Shown: positions 9,967 through 44,058 of the stretch, one piece after another
Layout: the number at the start of each line of letters is the position of its first letter
How positions within the stretch are numbered: the stretch's first letter is position 1
DNA from: Candidatus Latescibacterota bacterium
Lineage (GTDB): Bacteria; JAAXHH01
Direction of reading: 5' to 3'
Assembly (NCBI GenBank): GCA_022823465.1
Contig: JAJEHX010000042.1
Coordinates: 18,047 to 82,046, forward strand
Length of the DNA stretch: 64,000 bases
The notes under the pieces: generated by a model
The model's input: the letters and a program-made list of their open reading frames with translations, nothing else
Told to the model about the DNA's origin: nothing
Database searches by the model: none
Made by a program: the position numbers and the translations under genes

Positions 9967-10033
9967 ACGATCTGCACACTCTACGGCAAGGTACGTCCGT
10001 TTACGGGTCGATCAGGGTGTCTCGCGTTACACT

Positions 10034-30619: not shown

Positions 30620-31249
30620 TCAATCTTGGGAGATCCATGCAGGAGGAGGCCAGGCACCTACATCCTGTTGCAAGTTGCTTAACAGAGCGCCTATCGATCT
30701 TGTTAGTTTTCGAAAAGACCGCGACCTTCGATATGCATCCGACATTGAGAACAATGCACTTAATGCGGGCTGGTCTGTAGTTTCAATGTAACTTCTACCT
30801 GCTTGCATTCTTGCTTCGAGTTGCTCCTTTGCCCCCAGTGGTTCTTCAGGAGACGGGTGAGATTCGGCGTCGCTAAGAATACCTCTACGTCCTCTGATCG
30901 ATTCTATAGTAGCCAGAAACCAAGCCTCATACTCTCGATGTGCTAGTATGACTTCACACGGAATACCACCGGCAGATGCAGTTGCCCATGCTCGGACTGC
31001 GGGTCCCAACTCCGCAGGGCAATCAGTATCGCCGTCGAAAAGAATGAGAATCGCACGGCAATTTTGTTTCGAGAGCGCTAACCGCACCGCCTTTTGAACG
31101 TCAAATTCGCGAACGAGTTCGTGGCGCCGCCGCCGTATCGGGCGTCCAACGCCGATTGTCGATCTGCCGGCTTCCGCAAGAAGACGGCGCAACAGTACTG
31201 GAAAAGCTACTACGTCCCCGTGACCTTCTACGATAGGCTGGATGTTCAA
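30620..31249 (-). CDS. DUF4276-like TOPRIM-motif protein (predicted nuclease partner of upstream ATPase)
   Basis: TTG start overlapping the ATPase stop (TTGA). N-terminal IVEG (conserved TOPRIM Glu). ILILFDGDTDCP (DxDxD TOPRIM motif). About 209 aa. Confidence 0.65.
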   Translation of the reverse strand: MNIQPIVEGHGDVVAFPVLLRRLLAEAGRSTIGVGRPIRRRRHELVREFDVQKAVRLALSKQNCRAILILFDGDTDCPAELGPAVRAWATASAGGIPCEVILAHREYEAWFLATIESIRGRRGILSDAESHPSPEEPLGAKEQLEARMQAGRSYIETTDQPALSALFSMSDAYRRSRSFRKLTRSIGALLSNLQQDVGAWPPPAWISQD

Positions 31250-32478
31250 TGCGCGTTTCCCTCTGGAAACAACTCGTACTGGTACTTTATCTCGTCATCG
31301 AACAAATCCTCGGACATCGGTGTCAGTGCGTTTGATCTTAACAACTCTCCCGCCCCCATCAAGTGATCACACAGTGCCTGTCTTGAAGCTTGGGAAATCA
31401 CGTTTACTCGGGTCACGCCTTTACTCCAGGTTGCTATCCGCAGGTGTCGGTCTTCAATCCACTTAGCGTCCAAAACATCAGGACTGTGGGTTGTAACTAC
31501 TACTTGCATGAAGCGGGCGGCGTGCCTTAGTACATCGAGAATTGAGCCCAAAGCGCCCTGATGCATCGTGGCTTCGGGTTCCTCTATAACAAGAAGTGAA
31601 GGTTTTTGCGGCTGGAAAACGGCCGTGAGGAGCCCAAGTATACGTAGCGTTCCATCTGACATGTTAGAGGCTTCGAATCTCACAGGTTCCTTCTTGGCCC
31701 AGTCTTGCTTGAACTCTAACGTTAGCTTGTTACCATGCTTTTTGGGTTGAACACCAATAGTTCCAGGAACGATACTTTCGAGAACCTCACGTATTAGTTT
31801 CCAGTCATCCCGGGATTCGCGCTGGATTTCGCGCAACACGCTGGCCGCGTTACTACCATCCGAATGTAAACGCAAACCTCCGTCAGGATCCTGCATACCT
31901 CTCAAGGCAGTTGGCTCAATCCGGCATACACGCATTTCCGACAGGAATCTGGAAATGGATTTAAACCTTGCGTCGCCTCCGACAATCGGAAGAGCTAACG
32001 CGCTACGATCCATGACCAAATCTGAAACGTCTCCGAGTGTTAACCGACTCATCTTGGATTCCTTGGGTGCCAAATGGCGATCAAAGAGGTCGATCTGGCC
32101 ATCGGTCCTCTCCAAAGTACATCGCTCACGCACCACCTCGAAACCATAACTACCCCTGAGCGCCCGCAGTTCGAAGGCGTAATTCGCCAAGACCGTGTCA
32201 CTATCCAGGTTGTCTATTGTCACTGCCAGGCCCAAATTAGATGGACGACCCCTTGCAGAGCTCCTGTGGCCTACCGCTGGAAATCCGCCTCTGTGTTCGA
32301 GAACAGCTTGTAAAGGAGATGACATCGCTTCAGCCAAAAAAGCGAAAGCATCGGCAAAGTTACTCTTGCCAGAGCCATTCTGACCTACCAGAAAGGTCGG
32401 ATTGTCAAATTCCACAACATCCTTTTCAAAGCTTCGAAATCGGTGCAGTTTGAGTTTACGAAGTTTAGGATTCGACAT
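31246..32478 (-). CDS. ABC-type AAA ATPase (AAA_21/OLD-family-like)
   Basis: GQNGSGKSNF Walker A. LLVIEEPEATMH Walker B with the characteristic EEPE. VVTTHSP H-loop. Start at MSNPKLRKLKLHRF (32478) with GAGG RBS. Confidence 0.75.
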   Translation of the reverse strand: MSNPKLRKLKLHRFRSFEKDVVEFDNPTFLVGQNGSGKSNFADAFAFLAEAMSSPLQAVLEHRGGFPAVGHRSSARGRPSNLGLAVTIDNLDSDTVLANYAFELRALRGSYGFEVVRERCTLERTDGQIDLFDRHLAPKESKMSRLTLGDVSDLVMDRSALALPIVGGDARFKSISRFLSEMRVCRIEPTALRGMQDPDGGLRLHSDGSNAASVLREIQRESRDDWKLIREVLESIVPGTIGVQPKKHGNKLTLEFKQDWAKKEPVRFEASNMSDGTLRILGLLTAVFQPQKPSLLVIEEPEATMHQGALGSILDVLRHAARFMQVVVTTHSPDVLDAKWIEDRHLRIATWSKGVTRVNVISQASRQALCDHLMGAGELLRSNALTPMSEDLFDDEIKYQYELFPEGNAH

Positions 32479-32779
32479 CGTCGTACCTCGGGTCGACCAA
32501 GTGCTTTCCAGGGCGGCTGTCTGTTCTATTGCTGCTAGTCTATTTCGTCGATATCTGACGAGATTCATCGTATGGGAAGGGATAGATCAGGGCTGTTGGC
32601 CTGCCGTAGAGGAAAACCGGGAGGTGAGCAGCATCCCTATCCCGCCTGAAATAGAGGCCCGCCAGTGAGACGAAAGAAAACTGATTTCAGGATGCGCGTC
32701 AACCTGTACAGGAAAACACCATTGATGGAATTGGCAAAACCGAAGCTGTTAAAGTCATTTATTATTAAAGTCATCCGAC

Positions 32780-35133: not shown

Positions 35134-36072
35134 TCATCCGGGCCGTTTCATGATCAGGAGCAAGGGCCTGTGATCGGTGGGATACATCCTGCGGGCATCG
35201 TTGTTGTTGTCGAGGATGACGTAGACCCGGTCGCGATCCATCGCGAGTCCCTCTGCCGTCTTCGCGCCGAACTGCTCGTGCTGATAGAGGTATTCCGGAT
35301 CGTTGACAATATGGGCGAAGGACCAGATCGTCGAGGGGCTGTCCACGTCCAGGTACCGGATGGTCTTCCGTATGGTCGCGTTACTCCGCTGCAGGATGTA
35401 TACGTTCTCGGCCTCCCGGTGCAGCCCCGTGTAGCTGTTCGTCGATCCATGATTCGCGATCTCCACGACCCTTTGCACCGGGGCCATGTCTACTTCGATC
35501 AGGCCGCAGGGCTGCCGTTCCGCGGTGACCAGGAACCGGTCCCGGGCCATCATCGTGATTCCCTCGAGATAACCGCCGCGCGTCTGGAAGAGCCCTGCCG
35601 AAGCGCCCACGTCCCGAAGGCTCGTGGTGACCCAGGATGCCTTCTTCCCGTCCGCGTCGACCTTCAGAATGGCGAAGGCCCCTTCGCTGGCGAGATAGAA
35701 ACTGCCGTCGTCACCGCGGGTGATGCCTTCGAGGTCCAGCCGGAACACGCCGAAGGGCCTGGGTGCGTCGAACCGGACGTGGGGTACGAATACCGCGGCA
35801 TCTTCCCGAAGCTCGATCCGGAAGATGGTGTCGTCGTGCTTGTCGGACACGGTATACAGGGTGTCGTTGTGGACGAAAAGTCCCGATGGCTGGTTGGATT
35901 CGGGACCTTCCACGGGGAGGACGCTGATCGCTTCGAGGCGTATCGGATCGGTCTGCGCGTGGGATGCCTGGGGGGTCGAAGCCAGTATTGAGGCCCACAG
36001 GGAGAGCACTGCGAGCGGGAGACATAGCGCCAGCGGCCGCCGCACAACCCCGGGAAGCGCCCTACTCCCCAT
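35134..36072 (-). CDS. Secreted esterase-like-activity-of-phytase family protein
   Basis: Signal peptide. Repeated beta-propeller-like segments. General resemblance to PF13449-type proteins. Confidence 0.45.
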   Translation of the reverse strand: MGSRALPGVVRRPLALCLPLAVLSLWASILASTPQASHAQTDPIRLEAISVLPVEGPESNQPSGLFVHNDTLYTVSDKHDDTIFRIELREDAAVFVPHVRFDAPRPFGVFRLDLEGITRGDDGSFYLASEGAFAILKVDADGKKASWVTTSLRDVGASAGLFQTRGGYLEGITMMARDRFLVTAERQPCGLIEVDMAPVQRVVEIANHGSTNSYTGLHREAENVYILQRSNATIRKTIRYLDVDSPSTIWSFAHIVNDPEYLYQHEQFGAKTAEGLAMDRDRVYVILDNNNDARRMYPTDHRPLLLIMKRPG

Positions 36073-37732
36073 CGTCCACCTCGGCGATGTAGAGCTTGTG
36101 CCAGCGGAAGGAACCCACGGTACCGTCGTCGTTTACGGCATAACCCTTCAGCCAGGGTTTCCGTAGTTGCAGGCCCATCCTGTGAAAGAGGAAGGCCGCG
36201 GGATAGTCCGCCACCTGGACGTCCGCGGCTTCCCGGTAAAGTCTGTCCCTGATTTCAGGGTTCAGTTCGGCCGCGGCCGAGTCCACGAGGCGGTCGAAAG
36301 TCGGATTGTGCCAGTCCTGCCGGCCATGCCCCCGGGGCTGGGAGTGCCAGATCATGTCCAGCATGTTGCGCGGATCGAGGAAATCGGCGCCGAAAGCGAT
36401 CAGACCGAGGTTCATGTTCCACTTGTACAGGTGATCCATGTACGTGTGCAGGTCGGCCGTCCGGATATCCACGTCCACGCCGAGATGCTCTTTCAGCATG
36501 CTCTGTATCGCCACGCCGATGAGGCGGTCGGAAGGGGTGGGCGCCCTGAGCCACAGCTCCTGCCGGGGGAAACCCTGACCCTCGGGATAACCCGCTTCGC
36601 GCATTAACTGCCGTGCCCTCTCCGGGTCGAAGCCCTGTGCCGCGGCATGGCGGTCGCCTTCGAATTCCCTGAAGCCGGGCGGGATCATGGAATAGGCCGG
36701 CACGGCTCCGCCGCGCAGGATGACATTGCACATATTGTCGCGGTCCATCACCCGCGCAAAGGCTTCCCGCACACGAATGTCGTTGAAGGGCGGCAACTGC
36801 GTCCTGAAAAAGAGATACCAGGTGTTCAGCCCGTGGAACCGCACGAGATCCCGCTTCAGTTCGGGGTCCTTCTCGATGCGGTCCAGGTCGTTCACGTCGA
36901 CGTTTTCCATGTCGACTTCGTCGCTCTCGTAAGGAAGTATGGTCGCCGCGGCCGCGTTGCGGAAAGGGTGTATGACCTTCTCCAGGAAGGGTTTATGCGG
37001 ACCGTTGTAATAGGGGTTCGGGACGAGGGTCATATGGCTGCCGTTGACCCATTCCGTAACCATGAAACCGGAATTCGTGATGATGTTCTCCGGCTCGGTC
37101 CACTTTCGGCCGAATTTGTCCACCAGCCGCTTCGGCACCGGCATGGCGTCGCCGAAGGAGACGATATGGGGCAGGTAGGGCGCGCTTTTTTCGGTTTCGA
37201 TGACCAGCGTCGTATCGTCCACGGCCCGGATCCCCAGAGACTCGACGTCCTTGTTCTCCCCCTTGACGATCGCCTCGGCGTTCTTGATATCGTAATAGAA
37301 GAAGGCGTAGATGTTGGTGGATTCGGGGTCGAGCATCCTGCGATAGGAATAGACGAAGTCGTGGGCCGTCAGGGGCGATCCGTCGCTCCAGCGCATCCCC
37401 GATCGGAGATGGAAGGTCCAGACCTTGCCGTCTTCCGAGCCCCAGCTGTGCGCGGCGCCCGGGATCGGGTTCCAGTGCTCGTCCTTGAACAGCAGCGCTT
37501 CATATGGGAGGATCGTCTGCTCGGTATCGTAGGGCTCGATACTGGGATCCAGGCTCTTGGGTTCGGGACTCATGGAGCGCAGCACCTGACGCGAGGCGTC
37601 CACCGCGTCGTCCGGCAGCACCACGCCGATCGAGTTTACACGGTCCCCGGCCGCGGGCGCTTCCGTACCCCGATCGGCGTCTCCGCAAGACAACGGCAAC
37701 ATGATCGATATCAGAAGAATAGATAAGCGCAT
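36062..37732 (-). CDS. ABC transporter substrate-binding protein, family 5 (OppA/DppA-like), lipoprotein
   Basis: Start at MRLSILLISIMLPLSCG (lipobox). SBP_bac_5 conserved regions. The upstream part of the ORF to 37876 was rejected. Confidence 0.8.
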   Translation of the reverse strand: MRLSILLISIMLPLSCGDADRGTEAPAAGDRVNSIGVVLPDDAVDASRQVLRSMSPEPKSLDPSIEPYDTEQTILPYEALLFKDEHWNPIPGAAHSWGSEDGKVWTFHLRSGMRWSDGSPLTAHDFVYSYRRMLDPESTNIYAFFYYDIKNAEAIVKGENKDVESLGIRAVDDTTLVIETEKSAPYLPHIVSFGDAMPVPKRLVDKFGRKWTEPENIITNSGFMVTEWVNGSHMTLVPNPYYNGPHKPFLEKVIHPFRNAAAATILPYESDEVDMENVDVNDLDRIEKDPELKRDLVRFHGLNTWYLFFRTQLPPFNDIRVREAFARVMDRDNMCNVILRGGAVPAYSMIPPGFREFEGDRHAAAQGFDPERARQLMREAGYPEGQGFPRQELWLRAPTPSDRLIGVAIQSMLKEHLGVDVDIRTADLHTYMDHLYKWNMNLGLIAFGADFLDPRNMLDMIWHSQPRGHGRQDWHNPTFDRLVDSAAAELNPEIRDRLYREAADVQVADYPAAFLFHRMGLQLRKPWLKGYAVNDDGTVGSFRWHKLYIAEVDDGE

Positions 37733-37876
37733 GTTAGACGGTTGTTTGTCGCTGCCATCAGTTTCGTGGTGACCGGAATGTGGTCGGCTTACTTTCCAGC
37801 GCGTACAAGTGAACAAAACGGAGGTTACAGACTCAAGACATTCTGAACAACCTGAAGGAATAAAGCTTGAATCCAT

Positions 37877-39436
37877 TTAGCCTTTCTTTGCCATTCTTCT
37901 TAGCCACTCGGACTCATCAACTGCCACACGACTCTGTGTCGTCGCAAAAGTCTGTGCGATTCGTTGGGCGTATTCAGCCTTGAGTTCGCCTCGCCACGTA
38001 TATTGTCTGTCACAGGTGTCTGTGAATTCGAAATTACCATCTGATCTGCTTCTTACCGCGATTATCGCACTATTGCACTCCGACGGCTTGAATTGCGGCA
38101 GAAACCAACCGGACGGATCAAGTCCAATACCCATTCGCTTGAATTCGTGATCGAGTTTGATGACGAGTTGCTCCTTCTCCTTCGTTGGTTCAACCAGCGG
38201 AAGAAAAAGGAACGAAGTCTCCTCGTCCAACCTTACACAATCACATCGTGGCCTCATGCATATCAAGTGCCGTTCATCACCATCCATCGTCGCCGTGACG
38301 ATAGATCCCATCCACAATGTTGGTGGTGGCGCATTAAAAACTGTCCGAAAGCTCATTATCCACGCCAACCGTTCGTCAAGGTCGACGATGTTACCACACG
38401 CAAAACCCGATGAGAGGCCCTTAAATGCATTCTTGGGCAATACGCGAGCCTCCTGTAGACCCTTCTTCGCCAACTTAACCGTCTCTTCCAGGTCAATCTC
38501 TTCATCTCCGAACCGAAATCCTTCACCCTTACGACGTATCCAGCCCTCCACCGCTTCCACCCCGGCCGGAGACTCCTCGGCGACGGCGTTGTCCATAAGA
38601 CCACGAAGTTCCTCAGCAACATGGTTTACGATCTGGCGTTCCGCATCTTCTGGATCGGAAAGACAGACTCTGTGTGCGAGAAACGCCGGGTCCAAATCCG
38701 CACTGAATCGATCCAATACCTTATGCTCGCCCTCTCGAACGGCAGTCAGCGAGGTTAGTGCAATGGAGGGAAGCAATCCCTCTGTCATTGCCGCGAAATC
38801 ACTGATCAGTAAATCGGGAAGATCCTCCTCCGCGACGCTCCGGTTTCTCAGTGGCGCTGCCAGATTCACTGCAGACTTTGCATAAATGACAACTCGACCG
38901 TGCCGATATGAGATTTCCGTCTTGTTTTCATTCGTAGACGGGTCGAGTTCCACCTCTTTTAGTTTAACGACAATATCATTGCAAATGTCCTCCAACCGAC
39001 CTTCACCAGTATAAATAGCCACGAGTCGAAGCGAGTTTCGATTATCTGCCTCATCGGTTAGCAGTTTTGACAGCAACGTCAGCGCATATTGAGGATCGTC
39101 CGCCTGCAATCGCCAATCCAAGACCACGATATCGGCTTGCCTCAGTGCATTTATCTCGGATTGCGTAGGCCCAACTACGCCGCAGATCACGCCGATTGTG
39201 GAGAACGAATCAGTTATTGATCCAGCATTAAGCGATTGTTCCAGCCTCGGGACAACCGGGATTTGATCTTCCTGACTAACGGGCCGAGTTTCCCGACCCG
39301 GCACCACCACCTCTGCCTTGGGTCCAACGTCACCGTCCAATTCCATATATGCTTTGTCGTCCACCACGACGGCTGTCCGTAGAAAGCGCTGAGCGAACAA
39401 GCGGTGGCGACGACGGATCTCTTCTTCCGATACCAT
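37877..39436 (-). CDS. Receiver (REC)-like domain protein with ~330-aa C-terminal domain of unknown function
   Basis: AVVVDDK (acidic pocket), ADIVVLDWRL (phospho-acceptor Asp position), LVAIYT (conserved Thr) and VVIYAKS (Lys). A GGAG RBS lies 8 nt upstream. Translationally adjacent (10 bp) to the hybrid kinase gene. Confidence 0.55.
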   Translation of the reverse strand: MVSEEEIRRRHRLFAQRFLRTAVVVDDKAYMELDGDVGPKAEVVVPGRETRPVSQEDQIPVVPRLEQSLNAGSITDSFSTIGVICGVVGPTQSEINALRQADIVVLDWRLQADDPQYALTLLSKLLTDEADNRNSLRLVAIYTGEGRLEDICNDIVVKLKEVELDPSTNENKTEISYRHGRVVIYAKSAVNLAAPLRNRSVAEEDLPDLLISDFAAMTEGLLPSIALTSLTAVREGEHKVLDRFSADLDPAFLAHRVCLSDPEDAERQIVNHVAEELRGLMDNAVAEESPAGVEAVEGWIRRKGEGFRFGDEEIDLEETVKLAKKGLQEARVLPKNAFKGLSSGFACGNIVDLDERLAWIMSFRTVFNAPPPTLWMGSIVTATMDGDERHLICMRPRCDCVRLDEETSFLFLPLVEPTKEKEQLVIKLDHEFKRMGIGLDPSGWFLPQFKPSECNSAIIAVRSRSDGNFEFTDTCDRQYTWRGELKAEYAQRIAQTFATTQSRVAVDESEWLRRMAKKG

Positions 39437-39445
39437 CCTGTACTC

Positions 39446-42400
39446 CTATGATTCGTCCATTGGCACGATACCGAAAGTCGCGCCTACGTCTCCTACTATC
39501 AATTGTAGATCGAACCCTACCCGATGCAAAGTTTCACGTCCGATGTGTAATCCCATGCCACGACCGCCTGGTTTTCGGCTAAAACCGTATTCGAAAATCG
39601 CCTCCCGGTCACGAACATTGACTCCGGGGCCGTTATCCGCGACGAGCAATGAGCCGTCGTGCTCATCGAGTTCAATGCGCCGGTCTAATTGTGGATTCTG
39701 CTGTGATAGCCAGAAGATCGCGTTGTCTACCAAGTTTACAAACACAGGATAGAAGCTCGACGGAAAGCCTATAACCCTTGCGTTTGCGAAAGCCTTGGTC
39801 GCCGTCAACGTTACGTTATGACGCGACATACGAGCATTGAACAGTTCTTTAAGGAAATCTCGCACTTCGGAACCACGAATTTCCACCTGTTTTCTGTAGA
39901 GACGGCGCTGCAACGGTGTGAACAGTGTCAGGTAACCGTCAAGGTGATCGAAACTTGCTCGTATGCTCTCATACAACTTTGCCAATCCTTCATTCGCATC
40001 AGCCCACGCCCTCAGTTTTCTAAGTCCATTCCGAACTGACCTTATGGTACCAGCAAACTCGTGGTTTATTATTTCAATAGCCATTCCCAACTGCGCCAAC
40101 TGAGCATCGGCTTCCGCTTCCTCCTCCAGCAAGAGATTGCGTTGTTCAATGGCCACCAACTGATCGGCTATGGAACTCTCCCCCGTGACGTCTATGGACT
40201 GTAGTTGCTCCAATATCGAGCGTAACAATTCGCTTTGTTCTTCTGCAATCTTTTGGATTCTTTTCTCCAATTCATCCCTGGTTTCGACGAAAACCTCATC
40301 GGGCATCTCTGCGACGTCTACCCGTTGAAATTCACTCAGCACTGCCCGCAATTCCATCTCGACAGCTTTGAGTGATTGCCCGGCCGCACCCCTTGCAGCC
40401 GAGGCGACATTTTCCGCTTCCGTCCTAACAGCGCGGCTTGATTCTCCGGTAGTTTTGCGGACTTCCTTCCCTAGAGTCTCCAAAGCTTCTTCCGTTCTTT
40501 CACGGCGATCAAGTGCCAATTCCGCCTTTCTGGCTTCTTCACCGATCAGATCCTCAATCAGTTCCCGTGTTGGTCGAAACACATGTTCTTGAAGCGAAGC
40601 GAACTCGGTGTTGTACACGTTCCAATCGCGGAGGACAGCCTTGCTCAATCCGATACGAGGACGCGATACGCGATACTTTGCCTCCAACTCCCTAATATCC
40701 GCGTGCACTCGGCGTTCGAGGTTGAGGACCTCGCGTGCTGCCAATCGACTATCCGCGATGCCGCACGCAGACTGCAACTTTTCCGCGACGCCGTCCGTTA
40801 ATGCCATCGCTTCCTCTTGTGGCATATTGTTCGCGATTTTATCAAAAAACTCGTTCAGACGTTCCTGAAATACCCTCTTTTTTTCCGAAACCTGTCTTTC
40901 GCGTCGCTTCCTCGCTTCATCCTCTTTGGATAGTTCGTCTTTTCTCGTGTCGAACGTTTCAGCATGCACACCATCGGATCTGAAAAAGTCCGCAGCAATC
41001 TGCAGAAGGAAGTTTTGTAGTATTGACCGAAACTGGCGATAGGCTTTGTTTTCCTGGAATCCTTCTCGGCCCGCCTTTTCTCGCAGATCCCCATTCCTGG
41101 TAGCGTCGATCTCCACCGCTCCGAACATCTTGCGGTGTGAAAAATAATAATAATACGCGCTTTTTGTTCGCCTGAACTCGATGTCCAACCAATCAAATTC
41201 GGTATCGCCATATGGCAGTATTCGAATCCCGTTTCGATATATGTACAATCCTCCTATTTGTTCGGTCTTGTATGCCAATCTGGCGTGTTCCTCATTGGGG
41301 ATCGTCGAATACTTGGTTTCCCCCTCGAAGGCTGCAAAGTCGATCGAGAACTGGCCGCAGTTCGTACGTGCTCCTCGTCCACCACCCCAAGGTATGACGT
41401 GATCGGCTGTCGTCTCCCCATAGATCGAGATTTCGCCCATAAACTGACCGAACTCGTCGAACGTCCCTCGGATGCGGTGATCCGCATTCTGAAACTCCTC
41501 TGGAGTAAAAAACTCGTCCTCGCCGATCAGATCTACTGCCACCTCGTCCGTCTTGTGGTCCCGGAACGCGGTATGGATCACGCTATGAGATCCGGGCGTC
41601 ATGGAGTTACTGAATCCGAGCAGTGCTTTTTTCAAAGGCGTCGCCTTCTTCAATGCGGCGGTCTTGCTCGCTGTCGGGTCGCCGTCTATATCTTCTACCA
41701 ACAATGTCGAGGTTGGCTTGATGATGAATTGCGTACCGGAGCCGTCACTGCGAAGGGACGGCTCCCCGAGGTAGGAGTCAATCACTTGCGGATCGATATA
41801 AAAAAGATCCAACTCTCGACCAAGCTTTTTCAAGAACCGATTCTCGACACGCAGGCCGACCCTTTCGGCATTCTCACGGAACTCTCCCACCATCTCGGCC
41901 ACATCATGCGCTGAAGGTAGCGTACCCGGCGCGAATGACCGAAGTGGGATTTCAACTTCGTCCAAGTCGATTCCTGGCCACTCGAATATGCCCCAATTCA
42001 GGAATGCCGCAGTAAGATCGGAAGCTTCGCCGTCGGTCTTCGGTCGAGTGAGTACCAGAAGTTGTGGCCCTATAGTCGAAATGGCGAGTCTCCCGATTCC
42101 CTTCTCGCCGAGCATAGGGCGAGGTTTTGTATCCGGGTCAGGCGGCGGATTTGCGGTCGGGTCGAGTTTGTTCTCCGTACCGATAGTTAGCCACCGGGCT
42201 ACAAAGTTGTCGTAACTCATCCCGACGCCATCGTCCCTCAAAACGAACAGGCCGTCCGAGCGATAGTAATCGATCTCTACACGGACAGCATAGGCATCGT
42301 GGGCGTTCTTGAACAACTCGCTGATTGCCGTGGGCATACCGGCTATTTGTTGCCTACCGAGCATGTCGAGTGTTCGAGCACTTGTCTTGAATTTCGGCAT
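39446..42400 (-). CDS. Hybrid protein: N-terminal GHKL (Hsp90/MutL/MORC-like Bergerat) ATPase + long coiled coil + C-terminal histidine kinase (HisKA + HATPase_c)
   Basis: N-terminus: ELFKNAHDA (motif I) and RDDGVGMS (motif II). A roughly 450-aa charged coiled coil follows. C-terminus: INHEF H-box, NLVDNAI N-box, DNGPGV G1, IFEYGF F-box, GGRGMGLHI G2. The start ATG overlaps the dcm stop (TGATG). Confidence 0.7.
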   Translation of the reverse strand: MPKFKTSARTLDMLGRQQIAGMPTAISELFKNAHDAYAVRVEIDYYRSDGLFVLRDDGVGMSYDNFVARWLTIGTENKLDPTANPPPDPDTKPRPMLGEKGIGRLAISTIGPQLLVLTRPKTDGEASDLTAAFLNWGIFEWPGIDLDEVEIPLRSFAPGTLPSAHDVAEMVGEFRENAERVGLRVENRFLKKLGRELDLFYIDPQVIDSYLGEPSLRSDGSGTQFIIKPTSTLLVEDIDGDPTASKTAALKKATPLKKALLGFSNSMTPGSHSVIHTAFRDHKTDEVAVDLIGEDEFFTPEEFQNADHRIRGTFDEFGQFMGEISIYGETTADHVIPWGGGRGARTNCGQFSIDFAAFEGETKYSTIPNEEHARLAYKTEQIGGLYIYRNGIRILPYGDTEFDWLDIEFRRTKSAYYYYFSHRKMFGAVEIDATRNGDLREKAGREGFQENKAYRQFRSILQNFLLQIAADFFRSDGVHAETFDTRKDELSKEDEARKRRERQVSEKKRVFQERLNEFFDKIANNMPQEEAMALTDGVAEKLQSACGIADSRLAAREVLNLERRVHADIRELEAKYRVSRPRIGLSKAVLRDWNVYNTEFASLQEHVFRPTRELIEDLIGEEARKAELALDRRERTEEALETLGKEVRKTTGESSRAVRTEAENVASAARGAAGQSLKAVEMELRAVLSEFQRVDVAEMPDEVFVETRDELEKRIQKIAEEQSELLRSILEQLQSIDVTGESSIADQLVAIEQRNLLLEEEAEADAQLAQLGMAIEIINHEFAGTIRSVRNGLRKLRAWADANEGLAKLYESIRASFDHLDGYLTLFTPLQRRLYRKQVEIRGSEVRDFLKELFNARMSRHNVTLTATKAFANARVIGFPSSFYPVFVNLVDNAIFWLSQQNPQLDRRIELDEHDGSLLVADNGPGVNVRDREAIFEYGFSRKPGGRGMGLHIGRETLHRVGFDLQLIVGDVGATFGIVPMDES

Positions 42401-43482
42401 CAGGACAGCCTTCCCACATCCTTGAGATGCTCGATGAACTGTTGACCGATTAGCTTGGCCAGACGGACCGGTACTGCGTTTCCGATCTGCCTCGCCATAG
42501 ACGCCATGCTCCCATCAAACACGAAATCTTCCGGAAAAGTTTGTAAGCAAGCCGCTTCTCGAATACTGATCGCCCGATCCTGCTCAGGATGGCCAAAACG
42601 CCCGTTCGAATAGCTAATACACCGAGTAGTCAATCCCGAAGCAGGGGAGTCCCAGGCCATTCGGCCATACACATCGGAATACCCGGTAAAACCCTTGTGA
42701 CATTCGAGCTTTAGGTACTCCGGCCAGTCTCGTTCGCCTCCGCCTTCAGGCGTCGCTTTTATACGGTCGAGGTTTCGTTCAGAAAGATTTGCCGCTTTGT
42801 GATTAAGCACCTCTTCGTGCTCCTCGCCTGCGCGAATCGCCGGAAGATGGGAAATCCAGTCCCGAACCGTCGTGTAATTCTCTTTCGGTGTTCCAGGACC
42901 GTGCGTCTCATCGGGTATTGAAACAGCACCATGGCGGCTTCCTACAAGCACGAGTCGTCGTCGGCTTTGCGGTATACCGTACTTGGCTAGTAGGATGGGA
43001 CGATAGTCCACTTCATACCCTGCTTTATAGAGTCGGTTCAGAAAGTCACCAAAAGGTTGACTAGCGCTGTCTAACTTCTGCAACCCCGGTACGTTCTCCA
43101 CAAACACAAGGTCCGGTCGACAGCCTTCCACAAACCTGGCAAAGTGAGCAAGCAGCGGCACGCGCTCATCCTGGTCCAATCCAGGTCGCTTCGTGTTTTG
43201 CTTGCTGAATGGTTGACACGGTGCGCAACCGCTGAACAGCACCGGATTCGGTCGTTCCGCTTCTATCCGTTGGCGGATCATATCAACGCTAACCATGCGG
43301 ATATCTGCAAACTCGAAGCGGGCGTCGGGAAAGTTGGCTTGGAAACTCTCCCGAACATTCGCGTCATGATCTAGAGCGAACGAAATTTCCATGCCCGCAG
43401 CCCTAAATCCACAACTCGCGCCGCCACAACCAGCGAAAAAGTCATATACCTGAATGGCCATCGGGTCACCCCGGTGGGTCAC
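42400..43482 (-). CDS. dcm: DNA (cytosine-5)-methyltransferase
   Basis: FAGCGG (motif I), PCQPFS (motif IV catalytic Cys), ENV (motif VI), and the C-terminal target-recognition domain. Confidence 0.85.
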   Translation of the reverse strand: MTHRGDPMAIQVYDFFAGCGGASCGFRAAGMEISFALDHDANVRESFQANFPDARFEFADIRMVSVDMIRQRIEAERPNPVLFSGCAPCQPFSKQNTKRPGLDQDERVPLLAHFARFVEGCRPDLVFVENVPGLQKLDSASQPFGDFLNRLYKAGYEVDYRPILLAKYGIPQSRRRLVLVGSRHGAVSIPDETHGPGTPKENYTTVRDWISHLPAIRAGEEHEEVLNHKAANLSERNLDRIKATPEGGGERDWPEYLKLECHKGFTGYSDVYGRMAWDSPASGLTTRCISYSNGRFGHPEQDRAISIREAACLQTFPEDFVFDGSMASMARQIGNAVPVRLAKLIGQQFIEHLKDVGRLS

Positions 43483-43623
43483 ACTTGCTTATCGATGCCA
43501 AGTGCCGAATCATTGGCGCCGCACAGGATCGGGTCCAACTCCCGCCCAGTGCCACAAGGAACTGCGTCGATGTTTCCAGTCATTCAGTCGATTTTAGGTC
43601 CTTGATCTCGACAGGCGAGAGAC

Positions 43624-44058
43624 TCACCCACTCGCAAGATACCCTACTTTACACCGTATGAGTTTTGCCAGCCTGTGCTCCACTGCTGCTTCGTTTCTGG
43701 TCTCACACTGCCATATGACAAGAACCCGCCAGCCGAGTTTTATCAAAGCTGCTTCATGACGAGCATCGCGGTCTATGTTGGCAGCGAATTTCTCGGTCCA
43801 GAAGTCTTTCCGGGATTTCGGAGTGGACGCAAACCGACATCCCGCATGCCGATGCCAGAAGCATCCATGCACGAACACAGCCAGTCTATGTTTAGGAAGC
43901 ACTAGATCGGGACTTCCTGGAAGGTCCTTGCGGTGCAGACGAAAACGCAGGCCCATCCGATGAACGATGCGACGCACGGCAAGTTCCGGGGCCGTATTGC
44001 GAGTGCGAATCGCCGCCATCAATTCGCTACGCCGTTTGCGATCCATGATGTCGGTCAT
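43624..44058 (-). CDS. vsr: Very-short-patch repair endonuclease
   Basis: Conserved Vsr motifs (…TAPELAVRR…HRKDLPGSPDLVLPKHRLAVFVHGCFWHRH…). 144 aa. Confidence 0.85.
   Translation of the reverse strand: MTDIMDRKRRSELMAAIRTRNTAPELAVRRIVHRMGLRFRLHRKDLPGSPDLVLPKHRLAVFVHGCFWHRHAGCRFASTPKSRKDFWTEKFAANIDRDARHEAALIKLGWRVLVIWQCETRNEAAVEHRLAKLIRCKVGYLASG

What the first reader, a model, noticed from the sequence alone, without database searches (positions are those of the whole stretch)
37877..44058. Lower-GC island: vsr-dcm operon translationally coupled to a GHKL-ATPase/histidine-kinase hybrid and a REC-domain effector. Candidate novel methylation-linked two-component defence system
- Four minus-strand genes form one operon: vsr, dcm, a 984-aa hybrid protein, and a 519-aa receiver-like protein.
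- The dcm stop overlaps the ATG of the 984-aa protein (TGATG). The 519-aa gene follows 10 bp later with its own GGAG RBS.
- A standard Dcm/Vsr pair normally accompanies a restriction nuclease. Here the restriction slot is filled by (i) a protein that combines an N-terminal Bergerat-fold GHKL ATPase (ELFKNAHDA / RDDGVGMS), a roughly 450-aa coiled coil and a complete C-terminal histidine kinase (H-, N-, G1-, F-, G2-boxes), and (ii) a receiver-domain protein whose roughly 330-aa C-terminal domain has no recognisable motif.
- Island GC is about 50% against about 67% in the flanking oppA-like and htpG genes, consistent with horizontal acquisition.
- The architecture suggests a phosphorelay-gated, methylation-status-sensing immunity module. 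It is conceptually related to Detocs and to paraMORC-containing RM systems, but it is a different gene set.
Basis: partly seen in the sequence, partly recalled or inferred. Interest (0 to 1): 0.9.

Follow-up and report, generated by a model that had tools for sequence, protein, structure and literature searches.

The report
Known methylase-linked kinase/receiver module
This low-GC island carries a cytosine methylase and repair nuclease joined to an unusual ATPase/histidine-kinase and a receiver protein with an unknown output domain; the gene set was described by computation in 2021, nobody has tested its function, and it most likely works as a restriction-like defence.

Summary
Four intact minus-strand genes (vsr, dcm, a 984-aa protein, a 519-aa protein) lie in a ~6.3-kb block of 49-55% GC between htpG and oppA (60-66% GC). 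dcm and the 984-aa gene overlap by 1 nt.

The claim of novelty does not hold. Both large proteins match Pfam families built on exactly this pair: HEF_HK (PF19191) and Response_reg_2 (PF19192). Bellieny-Rabelo et al. 2021 (PMC8011034) linked the pair to C5-methylases, Vsr and paraMORC ATPases.

My own results:
- dcm, kinase and receiver keep the same order in 62 of 80 fetched genomes and diverge together (r at least 0.956). The receiver protein is always the most divergent.
- Ten loci keep dcm but have lost the kinase and/or receiver. No locus has a fully intact kinase and receiver without a dcm copy. This is the asymmetry expected of a restriction-modification system.
- Catalytic residues of both ATPase domains, the phospho-histidine and the receiver aspartate are conserved.
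- The 330-aa output domain matches no Pfam family or PDB sequence. The only lead is a weak MazF-like fold hit.

Best reading: a phosphorelay-gated, restriction-like conflict module. It is a new member of a known but experimentally untested kind.

The parts
43624..44058 (-). vsr: very-short-patch repair endonuclease (144 aa)
   Evidence: Pfam Vsr 2.8e-30, NCBIfam TIGR00632 7.2e-44, PADLOC Vsr 2e-32. A Vsr gene lies within 10 kb in 37 of the 62 intact related loci. Its position varies: upstream on the same strand, or downstream on the opposite strand.
43483..43623 (-). vsr-dcm intergenic spacer (141 nt to the GTG start, about 162 nt to the ATG at 43461)
   Evidence: Sequence read. There is no translational coupling here. 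No sigma-70-like promoter was found by the consensus scan.
42400..43482 (-). dcm: C5 cytosine DNA methyltransferase (360 aa from the GTG; the likely true start is the ATG at 43461)
   Evidence: Pfam DNA_methylase 7e-54, TIGR00675 1.7e-44, PADLOC MTase_II 4.2e-88. It lies directly upstream of the kinase gene in 76 of 80 related loci. Its stop overlaps the kinase ATG by 1 nt.
42017..42400 (-). 984-aa protein, residues 1-128: N-terminal GHKL ATPase of the MutL/Hsp90/MORC type (HATPase_c_3)
   Evidence: Pfam PF13589 3.3e-14. The N-terminus resembles the BbrUII/HgiDII restriction-enzyme family, 1.5e-17, and PADLOC REase_II, 8.7e-9. A profile hits the GHKL domains of GRP94, HtpG and MutL in the PDB. 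E28, N32, D35, D56/G58/G60 (the DxGxG positions) and GEKGIGRLA 98-106 are invariant or nearly so.
40961..42016 (-). 984-aa protein, residues 129-480: conserved globular middle domain (presumed clamp or transducer of the paraMORC module)
   Evidence: 71 positions are at least 97% conserved, with a high aromatic content. It has no Pfam or PDB sequence match. Its role is inferred by analogy with the middle domains of paraMORC and VcSduA (PMC2292703, PMC12137116).
40106..40960 (-). 984-aa protein, residues 481-765: long, poorly conserved helical linker (coiled-coil-like)
   Evidence: EKRAQL fraction 0.56-0.62, P+G 0.04-0.05, and only 10 near-invariant positions.
39893..40093 (-). 984-aa protein, residues 770-836: HEF_HK phospho-acceptor (DHp) domain with H780-E-F
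   Evidence: Pfam PF19191 2.2e-29. H780, E781 and F782 are invariant. Position H+4 is G784, not T or N. A 2026 preprint notes that PF19191 lacks that phosphatase-linked residue.
39500..39754 (-). 984-aa protein, residues 883-967: histidine-kinase catalytic ATP-binding domain (HATPase_c)
   Evidence: Pfam PF02518 1.1e-13. PDB sequence hits to HK853, PhoQ and CpxA reach 5e-6. The N box (NLVDNA), G1 (DNGPG), F and G2 (GGRGMGL) boxes are conserved.
38870..39385 (-). 519-aa protein, residues 18-189: divergent receiver domain (Response_reg_2)
37880..38869 (-). 519-aa protein, residues 190-519: output domain of unknown function
   Evidence: - **Predicted layout.** Helical part 194-362, beta-rich part 378-485, C-terminal helices 487-517.
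- **No family match.** No Pfam, NCBIfam, PADLOC or PDB sequence match.
- **Conserved polar residues.** R234, D249 and E276 are invariant. H255, R256, C393, C398, D399, R402, R503, E510 and R513 are at least 90% conserved.
- **Only structural lead.** Foldseek hits E. coli MazF: E 2.9e-3, probability 1.0, target TM-score 0.59-0.63. hhalign does not support this, probability 0.5%.

Best explanation
This locus is a member of the published HEF_HK / Response_reg_2 module, a 'two-component-like' pair that travels with a C5 cytosine methyltransferase and often with Vsr.

Proposed mechanism, with each step marked:
1. Dcm methylates its target sites on host DNA. (Enzyme family shown; protective role inferred.)
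2. Vsr repairs the T:G mismatches left by deamination of 5-methylcytosine. (Family shown; role from established knowledge.)
3. The N-terminal MutL/MORC-like GHKL ATPase and the conserved middle domain of the 984-aa protein act as an ATP-driven clamp that senses DNA lacking the methyl mark, or another sign of invasion. (Inferred.)
4. The signal passes along the helical linker of about 285 aa to the C-terminal kinase core, which phosphorylates H780. (Residues shown; activity inferred.)
5. The phosphoryl group moves to D107 of the 519-aa receiver protein. (Residues and gene pairing shown; transfer inferred.)
6. Phosphorylation releases the 330-aa output domain, a toxic or restricting effector of a so far unclassified fold. 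(Inferred.)

Because the kinase lacks the T/N residue tied to phosphatase activity, the switch may be hard to reverse.
For: - **Family membership.** Pfam PF19191 and PF19192 match at 2e-29 and 2e-32. The architecture HATPase_c_3 + HEF_HK + HATPase_c is 'group 1' of PMC8011034, found in 174 of 222 sequences.
- **One mobile unit.**
  - The order dcm, kinase, receiver and the spacing are conserved. All three genes are intact in 62 of 80 loci drawn from many phyla.
  - Identities co-vary with r = 0.956-0.976.
  - The 1-nt dcm/kinase overlap recurs in relatives.
- **Restriction-modification-like asymmetry of decay.**
  - Ten loci keep an intact dcm but have a disrupted kinase and/or receiver. Two of these carry IS insertions in the receiver gene.
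  - In the three loci away from contig ends where the adjacent dcm is absent or truncated, none has a fully intact kinase and receiver without a dcm copy. In L009 the kinase ORF starts at about residue 29 and so lacks E28. In L048 the kinase has lost residues 1-435 next to an ISL3 transposase. L054 carries a second dcm copy about 5 kb away.
- **Catalytic competence.** GHKL motifs, H780, the N/G1/F/G2 boxes, the receiver residues D26/D27, D107, T143 and K187, and a set of polar residues in the output domain are all conserved.
- **Fast-evolving effector.** The receiver protein is the most divergent of the three genes in 63 of 63 loci.
- **Context.**
  - Type I restriction-modification genes lie within 10 kb in 15-27 of 80 loci.
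  - PMC8011034 reports enrichment of restriction-modification domains around the pair.
  - A second low-GC islet in this window is a PADLOC HEC-01 defence candidate.
- **Precedent.** VcSduA (paraMORC3: GHKL ATPase + clamp + nuclease) is an experimentally shown anti-phage protein that needs both its ATPase and its nuclease (PMC12137116). The N-terminus here also resembles GHKL-bearing type II restriction enzymes.
Against: - No experiment exists for any member of the family.
- The output domain has no recognisable nuclease, NADase or other toxin motif. The MazF-like hit is weak and is not backed by profile comparison.
- PADLOC v2.0.0 has no model for the receiver protein.
- No homologue was found in 50,697 phage records, and only two decayed or distant copies were found in 72,556 plasmids.
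- The argument from dcm loss rests on only three loci.
- PMC8011034 finds separate nuclease genes (HNH_2, EcoRII-C, MvaI_BcnI) near some family members. In those contexts the pair could be an accessory or a regulator rather than the executor.
- My 80 loci were retrieved with two conserved peptides, so they over-sample one clade.
Confidence: 0.55

Rival explanations
1. Regulatory two-component system. The kinase senses an intracellular cue such as nucleotide levels, and the phosphorylated receiver protein controls expression or activity of the methylase or of other genes. In this reading it does not itself harm DNA, RNA or the cell. The 2021 paper favours this idea.
For: - The pair has all the hallmarks of a kinase and response regulator.
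- PMC8011034 speculates about a signalling cascade that controls restriction-modification systems.
- The Pectobacterium genes were up-regulated under stress.
- Some relatives have separate nuclease genes nearby.
Against: - No helix-turn-helix or other DNA-binding family is detected in the 330-aa output domain of 80 diverse members, even at E up to 1.
- The output domain carries invariant or near-invariant charged and Cys residues more typical of an active or ligand site.
- Kinase and receiver genes are repeatedly inactivated while dcm survives. That fits a costly effector better than a regulator.
- In this clade there is no other nuclease apart from Vsr to be regulated.
Confidence: 0.15
2. Conventional ATP-dependent restriction enzyme made of two subunits. 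The GHKL module and the receiver-protein output domain cut DNA directly. The kinase and receiver domains serve as docking or dimerisation modules, with no functional phosphotransfer.
For: - The N-terminus is homologous to the GHKL-bearing BbrUII/HgiDII type II enzymes and to PADLOC REase_II.
- The genes occupy the restriction slot next to dcm.
- The decay pattern is like that of a restriction-modification system.
Against: - The residues needed specifically for phosphotransfer would not be kept in a purely structural role. H780 and the N/G1/G2 boxes are invariant or nearly so across the loci. D26, D107 and K187 are invariant, and D27 and T143 are at least 90% conserved, down to 26% identity.
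- No nuclease motif such as PD-(D/E)xK, HNH or GIY-YIG is conserved in either protein.
Confidence: 0.12
3. DNA-repair or epigenetic-maintenance module. The MutL-like GHKL domain partners with Vsr, as MutL does in E. coli very-short-patch repair. The phosphorelay then reports or coordinates repair of deamination damage caused by the methylase.
For: - MutL-type GHKL homology.
- Vsr is co-located here and in 37 of 62 intact loci.
- The MutL-Vsr functional interaction is established knowledge, cited in PMC2292703.
Against: - Vsr is absent within 10 kb in 25 of 62 intact loci, and its position and strand vary, so it is accessory.
- Repair does not explain the frequent inactivation of the kinase and receiver, nor the fast-evolving output domain.
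Confidence: 0.07
4. Ordinary housekeeping sensor kinase and response regulator that lie next to dcm/vsr by chance.
For: None beyond the generic kinase and receiver domains.
Against: - The dcm-kinase-receiver order is conserved across phyla with co-varying identities.
- The literature reports 91.6% linkage of the pair.
- The island has low GC.
- There are no transmembrane or classical sensor domains and no DNA-binding output.
Confidence: 0.02

Closest known systems
HEF_HK / Response_reg_2 'two-component-like' module linked to restriction-modification systems (Bellieny-Rabelo, Pretorius & Moleleki 2021, Genome Biol Evol; Pfam PF19191 and PF19192)
   Same: - Same two Pfam families.
- Same 'group 1' kinase architecture (HATPase_c_3 + HEF_HK + HATPase_c).
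- The receiver protein has no other known domain.
- A C5-methylase gene lies immediately upstream and Vsr is nearby.
- Soluble proteins.
   Different: There is no difference in kind. This copy belongs to a clade found mostly in uncultured, many apparently sponge-associated, genomes. Here the module is a compact dcm-kinase-receiver (plus or minus vsr) unit with no extra nuclease gene. The paper proposed a regulatory role. The gene-decay asymmetry found here points to an executor role instead.
paraMORC3 / type I-D Shedu (VcSduA of Vibrio cholerae; Iyer et al. 2008; PMC12137116)
   Same: An N-terminal MutL/MORC-like GHKL ATPase followed by a conserved middle domain, carried in restriction-modification or defence contexts. 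For VcSduA the ATPase is needed to license an effector.
   Different: VcSduA carries its PD-(D/E)xK (DUF4263) nuclease on the same chain. Here that position holds a long helix and a histidine-kinase core, and the effector is a separate receiver-fused protein. No SduA model in PADLOC is hit.
Detocs (DtcA kinase, DtcB buffer receiver, DtcC receiver + PNP effector)
   Same: The concept is shared: a defence system that uses His-Asp phosphotransfer to switch on a receiver-fused effector.
   Different: - No buffer receiver protein is present.
- The sensor is different (a GHKL ATPase instead of TPR repeats).
- The kinase DHp family and the receiver family are different.
- The effector is different.
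- A methyltransferase is obligatorily linked here.
- No named defence-system model was hit beyond generic REase_II and a marginal LmuB match.
GHKL-bearing type II restriction enzymes with Dcm/Vsr partners (BbrUII/HgiDII family, NF050001)
   Same: The N-terminal ~120 residues are homologous (1.5e-17), and the genes sit next to a C5-methylase.
   Different: The score of 63 bits is far below the 550-bit family cut-off, and only the GHKL domain aligns. The rest of the protein is kinase machinery rather than a nuclease.

Membership tests
HEF_HK / Response_reg_2 module (PMC8011034) | Kinase-like protein with the HEF_HK (PF19191) phospho-acceptor domain and its H-E-F motif | tested here: met
   PF19191 scores 102 bits against a cut-off of 24.1. 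H780-E781-F782 are invariant in 60 sequences.
HEF_HK / Response_reg_2 module (PMC8011034) | Adjacent gene encoding a Response_reg_2 (PF19192) protein with the receiver Asp, acidic pair, Thr and Lys | tested here: met
HEF_HK / Response_reg_2 module (PMC8011034) | N-terminal HATPase_c_3 and C-terminal HATPase_c (the 'group 1' architecture) | tested here: met
   PF13589 at residues 24-125 and PF02518 at residues 883-967.
HEF_HK / Response_reg_2 module (PMC8011034) | Genomic association with a C5-methylase and other restriction-modification genes | tested here: met
   dcm is overlapped by the kinase start codon. dcm is adjacent in 76 of 80 relatives. Vsr is present here and in 37 of 62 intact loci.
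HEF_HK / Response_reg_2 module (PMC8011034) | Actual His-to-Asp phosphotransfer between the two proteins | not testable with these tools
   This needs purified proteins. It has not been reported in the literature searched.
Classical restriction-modification system | A methyltransferase that protects the host genome | tested here: inconclusive
   A C5-methylase is present and intact. Its protective role is suggested only by the decay asymmetry. Its target sequence is unknown.
Classical restriction-modification system | A recognisable endonuclease that cuts unmodified DNA | tested here: not met
   No nuclease family or motif is found in the 984-aa or 519-aa proteins. Vsr is a repair nickase.
Detocs | DtcA, DtcB and DtcC homologues (TPR-kinase, stand-alone buffer receiver, receiver-PNP effector) | tested here: not met
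   PADLOC v2.0.0 gave no hit for the receiver protein. For the kinase it gave only REase_II and a marginal LmuB match. I did not check whether that version holds Detocs models. No third receiver gene lies in the island, and there is no PNP domain.
paraMORC3 / Shedu type I-D | GHKL ATPase fused to a DUF4263 PD-(D/E)xK nuclease | tested here: not met
   The GHKL domain is present but there is no DUF4263 or nuclease domain. The C-terminus is a histidine-kinase core.
MazF/PemK/CcdB toxin fold (for the receiver protein's beta-rich subdomain) | Sequence or profile similarity to MazF/PemK and a conserved catalytic Arg/Thr | tested here: inconclusive
   - **For.** Foldseek hits three MazF chains: E 3e-3 to 2e-2, probability 1.0, target TM-score 0.59-0.63.
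- **Against.** hhalign gives a probability of 0.5%, and there is no PemK hit in Pfam. R395, in front of the near-invariant P396, is replaced by Q in distant members.
- **Limit.** The aligned region could not be inspected.

The most novel reading that the evidence does not exclude
The module is a restriction-like immune or addiction system in which the 'restriction' step runs through His-Asp phosphotransfer. A MORC-like DNA clamp detects DNA lacking the cognate 5-methylcytosine mark and, through its fused kinase, irreversibly switches on a receiver-fused effector of a new fold, possibly with a MazF-like barrel. This would be a third logic for methylation-based self/non-self discrimination, beside direct cleavage and BREX/DISARM-type exclusion.
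Probability: 0.35. Interest if true: 0.8.

Novelty: new member of a known kind. Interest (0 to 1): 0.45.

Why it matters
- **Size of the family.** The family is large: 1,546 clusters at 50% identity match the receiver protein, 733 of them at E of 1e-30 or better. It spans many phyla. PADLOC v2.0.0 has no model for it, and no experimental paper on it turned up.
- **What a confirmed function would show.** If the proposed logic is right, it would link two of the best-studied bacterial mechanisms, two-component phosphotransfer and methylation-based self-recognition. It would also reveal a new phospho-activated effector domain.
- **Wider relevance.** It bears on how MORC-type ATPases read DNA methylation states, which is relevant to eukaryotic MORCs.
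- **Value of this locus.** The window copy is intact and compact (about 6.3 kb, four genes), which makes it a convenient construct for testing.

Tried and rejected
- **First AlphaFold run.** A shallow alignment of 36 sequences at 62% identity or more gave pLDDT 54 and was unusable. It was replaced by a 100-sequence alignment, which gave pLDDT 81.7.
- **Fold searches.**
  - afdb50 was unavailable.
  - BFVD gave nothing significant.
- **Output-domain homology.**
The probability was 0.5%.
  - Profiles of the beta-rich and helical subdomains found nothing credible among PDB sequences.
  - A lenient Pfam scan of 80 diverse members found nothing beyond the receiver domain.
  - An Rx3H pair (R234...H238) was considered as a HEPN-like motif. 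It was dropped because the spacing is shorter than the Rx4-6H that I recall for HEPN domains, and H238 is not invariant.
- **Origin of the window.** Exact-sequence look-ups of the window's receiver protein found no record.
- **Island boundaries.** No flanking direct or inverted repeats mark the island's ends.
- **MADS.** It was checked as a possible identity and is a different eight-gene system.
- **Plasmid copies.** The Pseudomonas copy is an IS5-truncated remnant. The Phocaeicola record has no annotation.
Full report
**1. What is in the sequence**

- vsr: 43624-44058, 144 aa.
- dcm: 42400-43482, 360 aa from a GTG. An ATG at 43461 gives the typical MAIQVYDFFAGCGG start.
- A 984-aa gene: 39446-42400.
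- A 519-aa gene: 37877-39436.

The dcm stop and the ATG of the 984-aa gene share one base (TGATG). The 519-aa gene starts 9 nt after the upstream TAG, and a GGAG overlaps that stop. vsr is separated from dcm by about 141-162 nt and is not coupled to it.

The block has 0.49-0.55 GC. The htpG and oppA flanks have 0.60-0.66, and the window as a whole is mostly about 0.62. No flanking repeats mark the ends of the island.

The 604-aa ORF that abuts the stop of the 519-aa gene is over-extended. OppA homology in relatives begins at residue 46-62, and a lipoprotein-type signal peptide starts at M49.

**2. Domain content**

Pfam, NCBIfam and PADLOC confirm Vsr and a C5 cytosine methyltransferase.

The 984-aa protein has three Pfam domains:
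- HATPase_c_3, residues 24-125.
- HEF_HK (PF19191), residues 770-836.
- HATPase_c, residues 883-967.

Its N-terminus also resembles GHKL-bearing type II restriction enzymes: NF050001 BbrUII/HgiDII at 1.5e-17 and PADLOC REase_II at 8.7e-9. A profile of the N-terminal half hits the GHKL domains of GRP94, HtpG and MutL in the PDB. The C-terminus matches the solved kinases HK853, PhoQ and CpxA.

I aligned 60 orthologues taken from fetched loci. The following positions are invariant or nearly so:
- E28, N32, D35, D56/G58/G60 (the DxGxG positions) and GEKGIGRLA in the first ATPase.
- H780-E-F in the phospho-acceptor helix.
- The N, G1, F and G2 boxes of the kinase ATP site.

Position H+4 is G784, not T or N. 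A 2026 preprint notes that PF19191 lacks this phosphatase-associated residue.

- Residues 129-480 form a strongly conserved globular domain with 71 near-invariant positions and many aromatic residues.
- Only residues 481-765 form a poorly conserved helical linker rich in E, K, R, A, Q and L.

The 519-aa protein has Response_reg_2 (PF19192) at residues 18-189 and nothing after that.

**3. This gene set is already described**

A full-text search for the two Pfam names led to Bellieny-Rabelo, Pretorius & Moleleki 2021 (PMC8011034). The authors defined both domains starting from a Pectobacterium gene pair. Their main findings were:
- 91.6% linkage of the two genes across 644 regions in 628 strains.
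- The architecture HATPase_c_3 + HEF_HK + HATPase_c as the dominant 'group 1'.
- C5-methylase genes frequently upstream, and Vsr genes nearby in 20 genera.
- A proposed descent from paraMORC ATPases (Iyer et al. 2008, PMC2292703).

They found no further domain in the receiver protein, did no experiments, and suggested a regulatory link to restriction-modification systems.

I found no later experimental work. MADS is a different eight-gene system. PADLOC v2.0.0 has no model for the receiver protein, and the kinase hits no named defence system beyond REase_II and a marginal LmuB match.

**4. Comparative evidence gathered here**

*Family size.* The receiver protein belongs to a large full-length family.
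- 520 clusters at 90% identity came from the word-indexed search.
- 1,546 clusters at 50% identity have E of 1e-3 or better, and 733 have E of 1e-30 or better. Among the 150 best listed, most full-length members are about 500-600 aa.

*Synteny.* A scan of species-representative genomes returned 80 loci, nearly all from uncultured bacteria of many phyla. Several have names typical of sponge symbionts. I ran tblastn with the window proteins against these loci.
- The order dcm, kinase, receiver recurs with near-constant spacing.
- All three genes are intact in 62 loci.
- Identities to the window proteins co-vary with r = 0.956-0.976.
- Median identities are 68% for Dcm, 66% for the kinase and 49% for the receiver protein. 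The receiver protein is the most divergent in 63 of 63 loci.
- Vsr lies within 10 kb in 37 of the 62 intact loci, at variable positions and on either strand. It is therefore an accessory gene.
- L032 shares the htpG and oppA flanks with the window, so the insertion predates the split of those two genomes.

*Pattern of decay.*
- Ten loci keep an intact dcm but have a disrupted kinase and/or receiver. Two of these have DDE transposase insertions in the receiver gene.
- In the three loci away from contig ends where the adjacent dcm is absent or truncated, none has a fully intact kinase and receiver without a dcm copy:
  - In L009 the kinase ORF starts at about residue 29 and so lacks E28. An integrase gene lies upstream.
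  - In L048 the kinase has lost residues 1-435, next to an ISL3 transposase.
  - L054 has a second dcm copy about 5 kb away.
- Orphan methylases are tolerated and orphan 'restriction arms' are not seen. This is the classical signature of a restriction-modification or toxin-antidote system. The dcm-loss sample is small, so I treat this as suggestive only.

*Neighbourhood.* Type I restriction-modification genes lie within 10 kb in 15-27 of the 80 loci.

*Mobile elements.* No homologue was found in phage records. Only two distant or decayed copies were found in plasmids.

**5. The receiver protein**

Across 80 representatives of 26-59% identity, the invariant positions are D26, D102, D107, W108, Y142, K187, G220, R234, D249, E276 and G377. 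D27 and T143 are at least 90% conserved. The receiver domain therefore keeps its acidic pair, its phospho-acceptor Asp, and its Thr and Lys. The output part also has H255, R256, C393, P396, C398, D399, R402, W481, R503, E510, W511 and R513 conserved at 90% or more.

The first AlphaFold run, on a shallow alignment, failed with pLDDT 54. A 100-sequence alignment spanning 39-89% identity gave pLDDT 81.7 and pTM 0.77. The model shows:
- a receiver fold with a disordered insert at residues 31-65;
- a helical region, 194-362;
- a beta-rich region, 378-485;
- C-terminal helices, 487-517.

Foldseek against the PDB puts E. coli MazF first: E 2.9e-3, probability 1.0, target TM-score 0.59-0.63 for three MazF chains. 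This hint is not backed by other tests:
- hhalign against MazF, EndoA and Kid gives a probability of 0.5%.
- Pfam gives nothing at lenient thresholds on 80 members.
- Subdomain profiles find nothing among PDB sequences.

The effector class remains open. No PD-(D/E)xK, HNH or HEPN motif is conserved.

**6. Mechanism**

The best-supported reading is a restriction-like conflict module.
- Dcm marks self DNA, and Vsr offsets the mutagenic cost of 5-methylcytosine.
- The MutL/MORC-like ATPase with its middle domain senses unmarked or foreign DNA.
- The long helix relays that signal to the kinase core.
- H780 passes the phosphoryl group to D107.
- The phosphorylated receiver releases a harmful output domain.

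What is shown: domain identities, conserved catalytic residues, gene coupling, co-inheritance, and asymmetric decay.

What is inferred: what is sensed, the phosphotransfer itself, and the effector's activity.

There is an experimental precedent for a paraMORC-type GHKL module licensing an effector. VcSduA (type I-D Shedu) needs both its ATPase and its nuclease for anti-phage activity (PMC12137116).

The rival readings are listed separately with their evidence: a purely regulatory two-component system, a phosphotransfer-independent two-subunit restriction enzyme, and a Vsr-linked repair role. A housekeeping two-component system is excluded by the synteny data.

**7. Verdict**

It is not a new gene set, and its role in defence is still untested.

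I file it as a new member of a known kind, and of moderate interest. The open and worthwhile questions are the identity of the output domain and whether phosphotransfer really gates restriction.

Noticed in passing
window 30620-32568 (minus strand): A second low-GC islet (about 0.52 GC) encodes an AAA_21 ATPase (440 aa) and a DUF4276 protein (209 aa) with overlapping genes. They match the PADLOC candidate defence system HEC-01 (HEC-01A 5e-103, HEC-01B 5e-61). Low-GC islets in this genome therefore tend to carry defence cargo.
   Followed up: partly
window 10000-15000: A third low-GC block (0.46-0.54 GC) holds a DUF7790 protein (10552-11871), an unannotated 173-aa ORF that overlaps it, a weak AhpC/TSA-like ORF and a sigma-54 activator (13442-14545). 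It has no PADLOC hits, and its function and origin are unknown.
   Followed up: partly
window 42400-43482 (dcm): The best PDB sequence matches of this bacterial Dcm are the catalytic domains of eukaryotic DNMT1 (E about 3e-25, mainly residues 263-352). These rank ahead of M.HaeIII (1.7e-18) and M.HhaI (about 1e-11). This is curious, given that eukaryotic MORCs have been proposed to derive from prokaryotic restriction-modification systems.
   Followed up: no
L001-L080: Close relatives (56-76% identity to the receiver protein, 69-90% to the kinase) occur in MAGs labelled Binatia, Terriglobia, Gamma- and Alphaproteobacteria, Spirochaetia, Cyanobacteria (a Synechococcus bin; a protein hit names 'Candidatus Synechococcus spongiarum'), Poriferihabitaceae and others. 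This points to recent horizontal spread, possibly within sponge-associated communities.
   Followed up: partly
L033 8812-10001; L042 10954-12166; L035 4061-6183; L048 6300-7568: IS elements (DDE_3, DDE_Tnp_1, ISL3 transposases) are inserted in or next to module genes: the receiver gene in L033 and L042, dcm in L035, and the kinase in L048. L024 and L037 have insertions of 1.4-1.8 kb in the kinase gene whose ORFs have no Pfam match.
   Followed up: partly
L054 14733-16273 (opposite strand): This locus has a second, inverted partial copy of the module (a full-length dcm plus the first 164 residues of the kinase) about 5 kb downstream of the main copy. The dcm of the main copy is truncated at its 5' end. 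It looks like a rearrangement that moved the functional methylase.
   Followed up: no
window 36062-37876: The 604-aa oppA-like ORF has an ATG directly after the stop of the receiver gene. Homology and a lipoprotein signal peptide (MRLSILLISIMLPLSCG, from M49) show that the real gene starts near 37732, which leaves an intergenic gap of about 144 nt.
   Followed up: yes
window 39446-42400, residue G784: The HEF_HK phospho-acceptor helix lacks the T/N residue four positions after the histidine, which is linked to phosphatase activity in HisKA kinases. This suggests a kinase-only, poorly reversible switch.
   Followed up: partly
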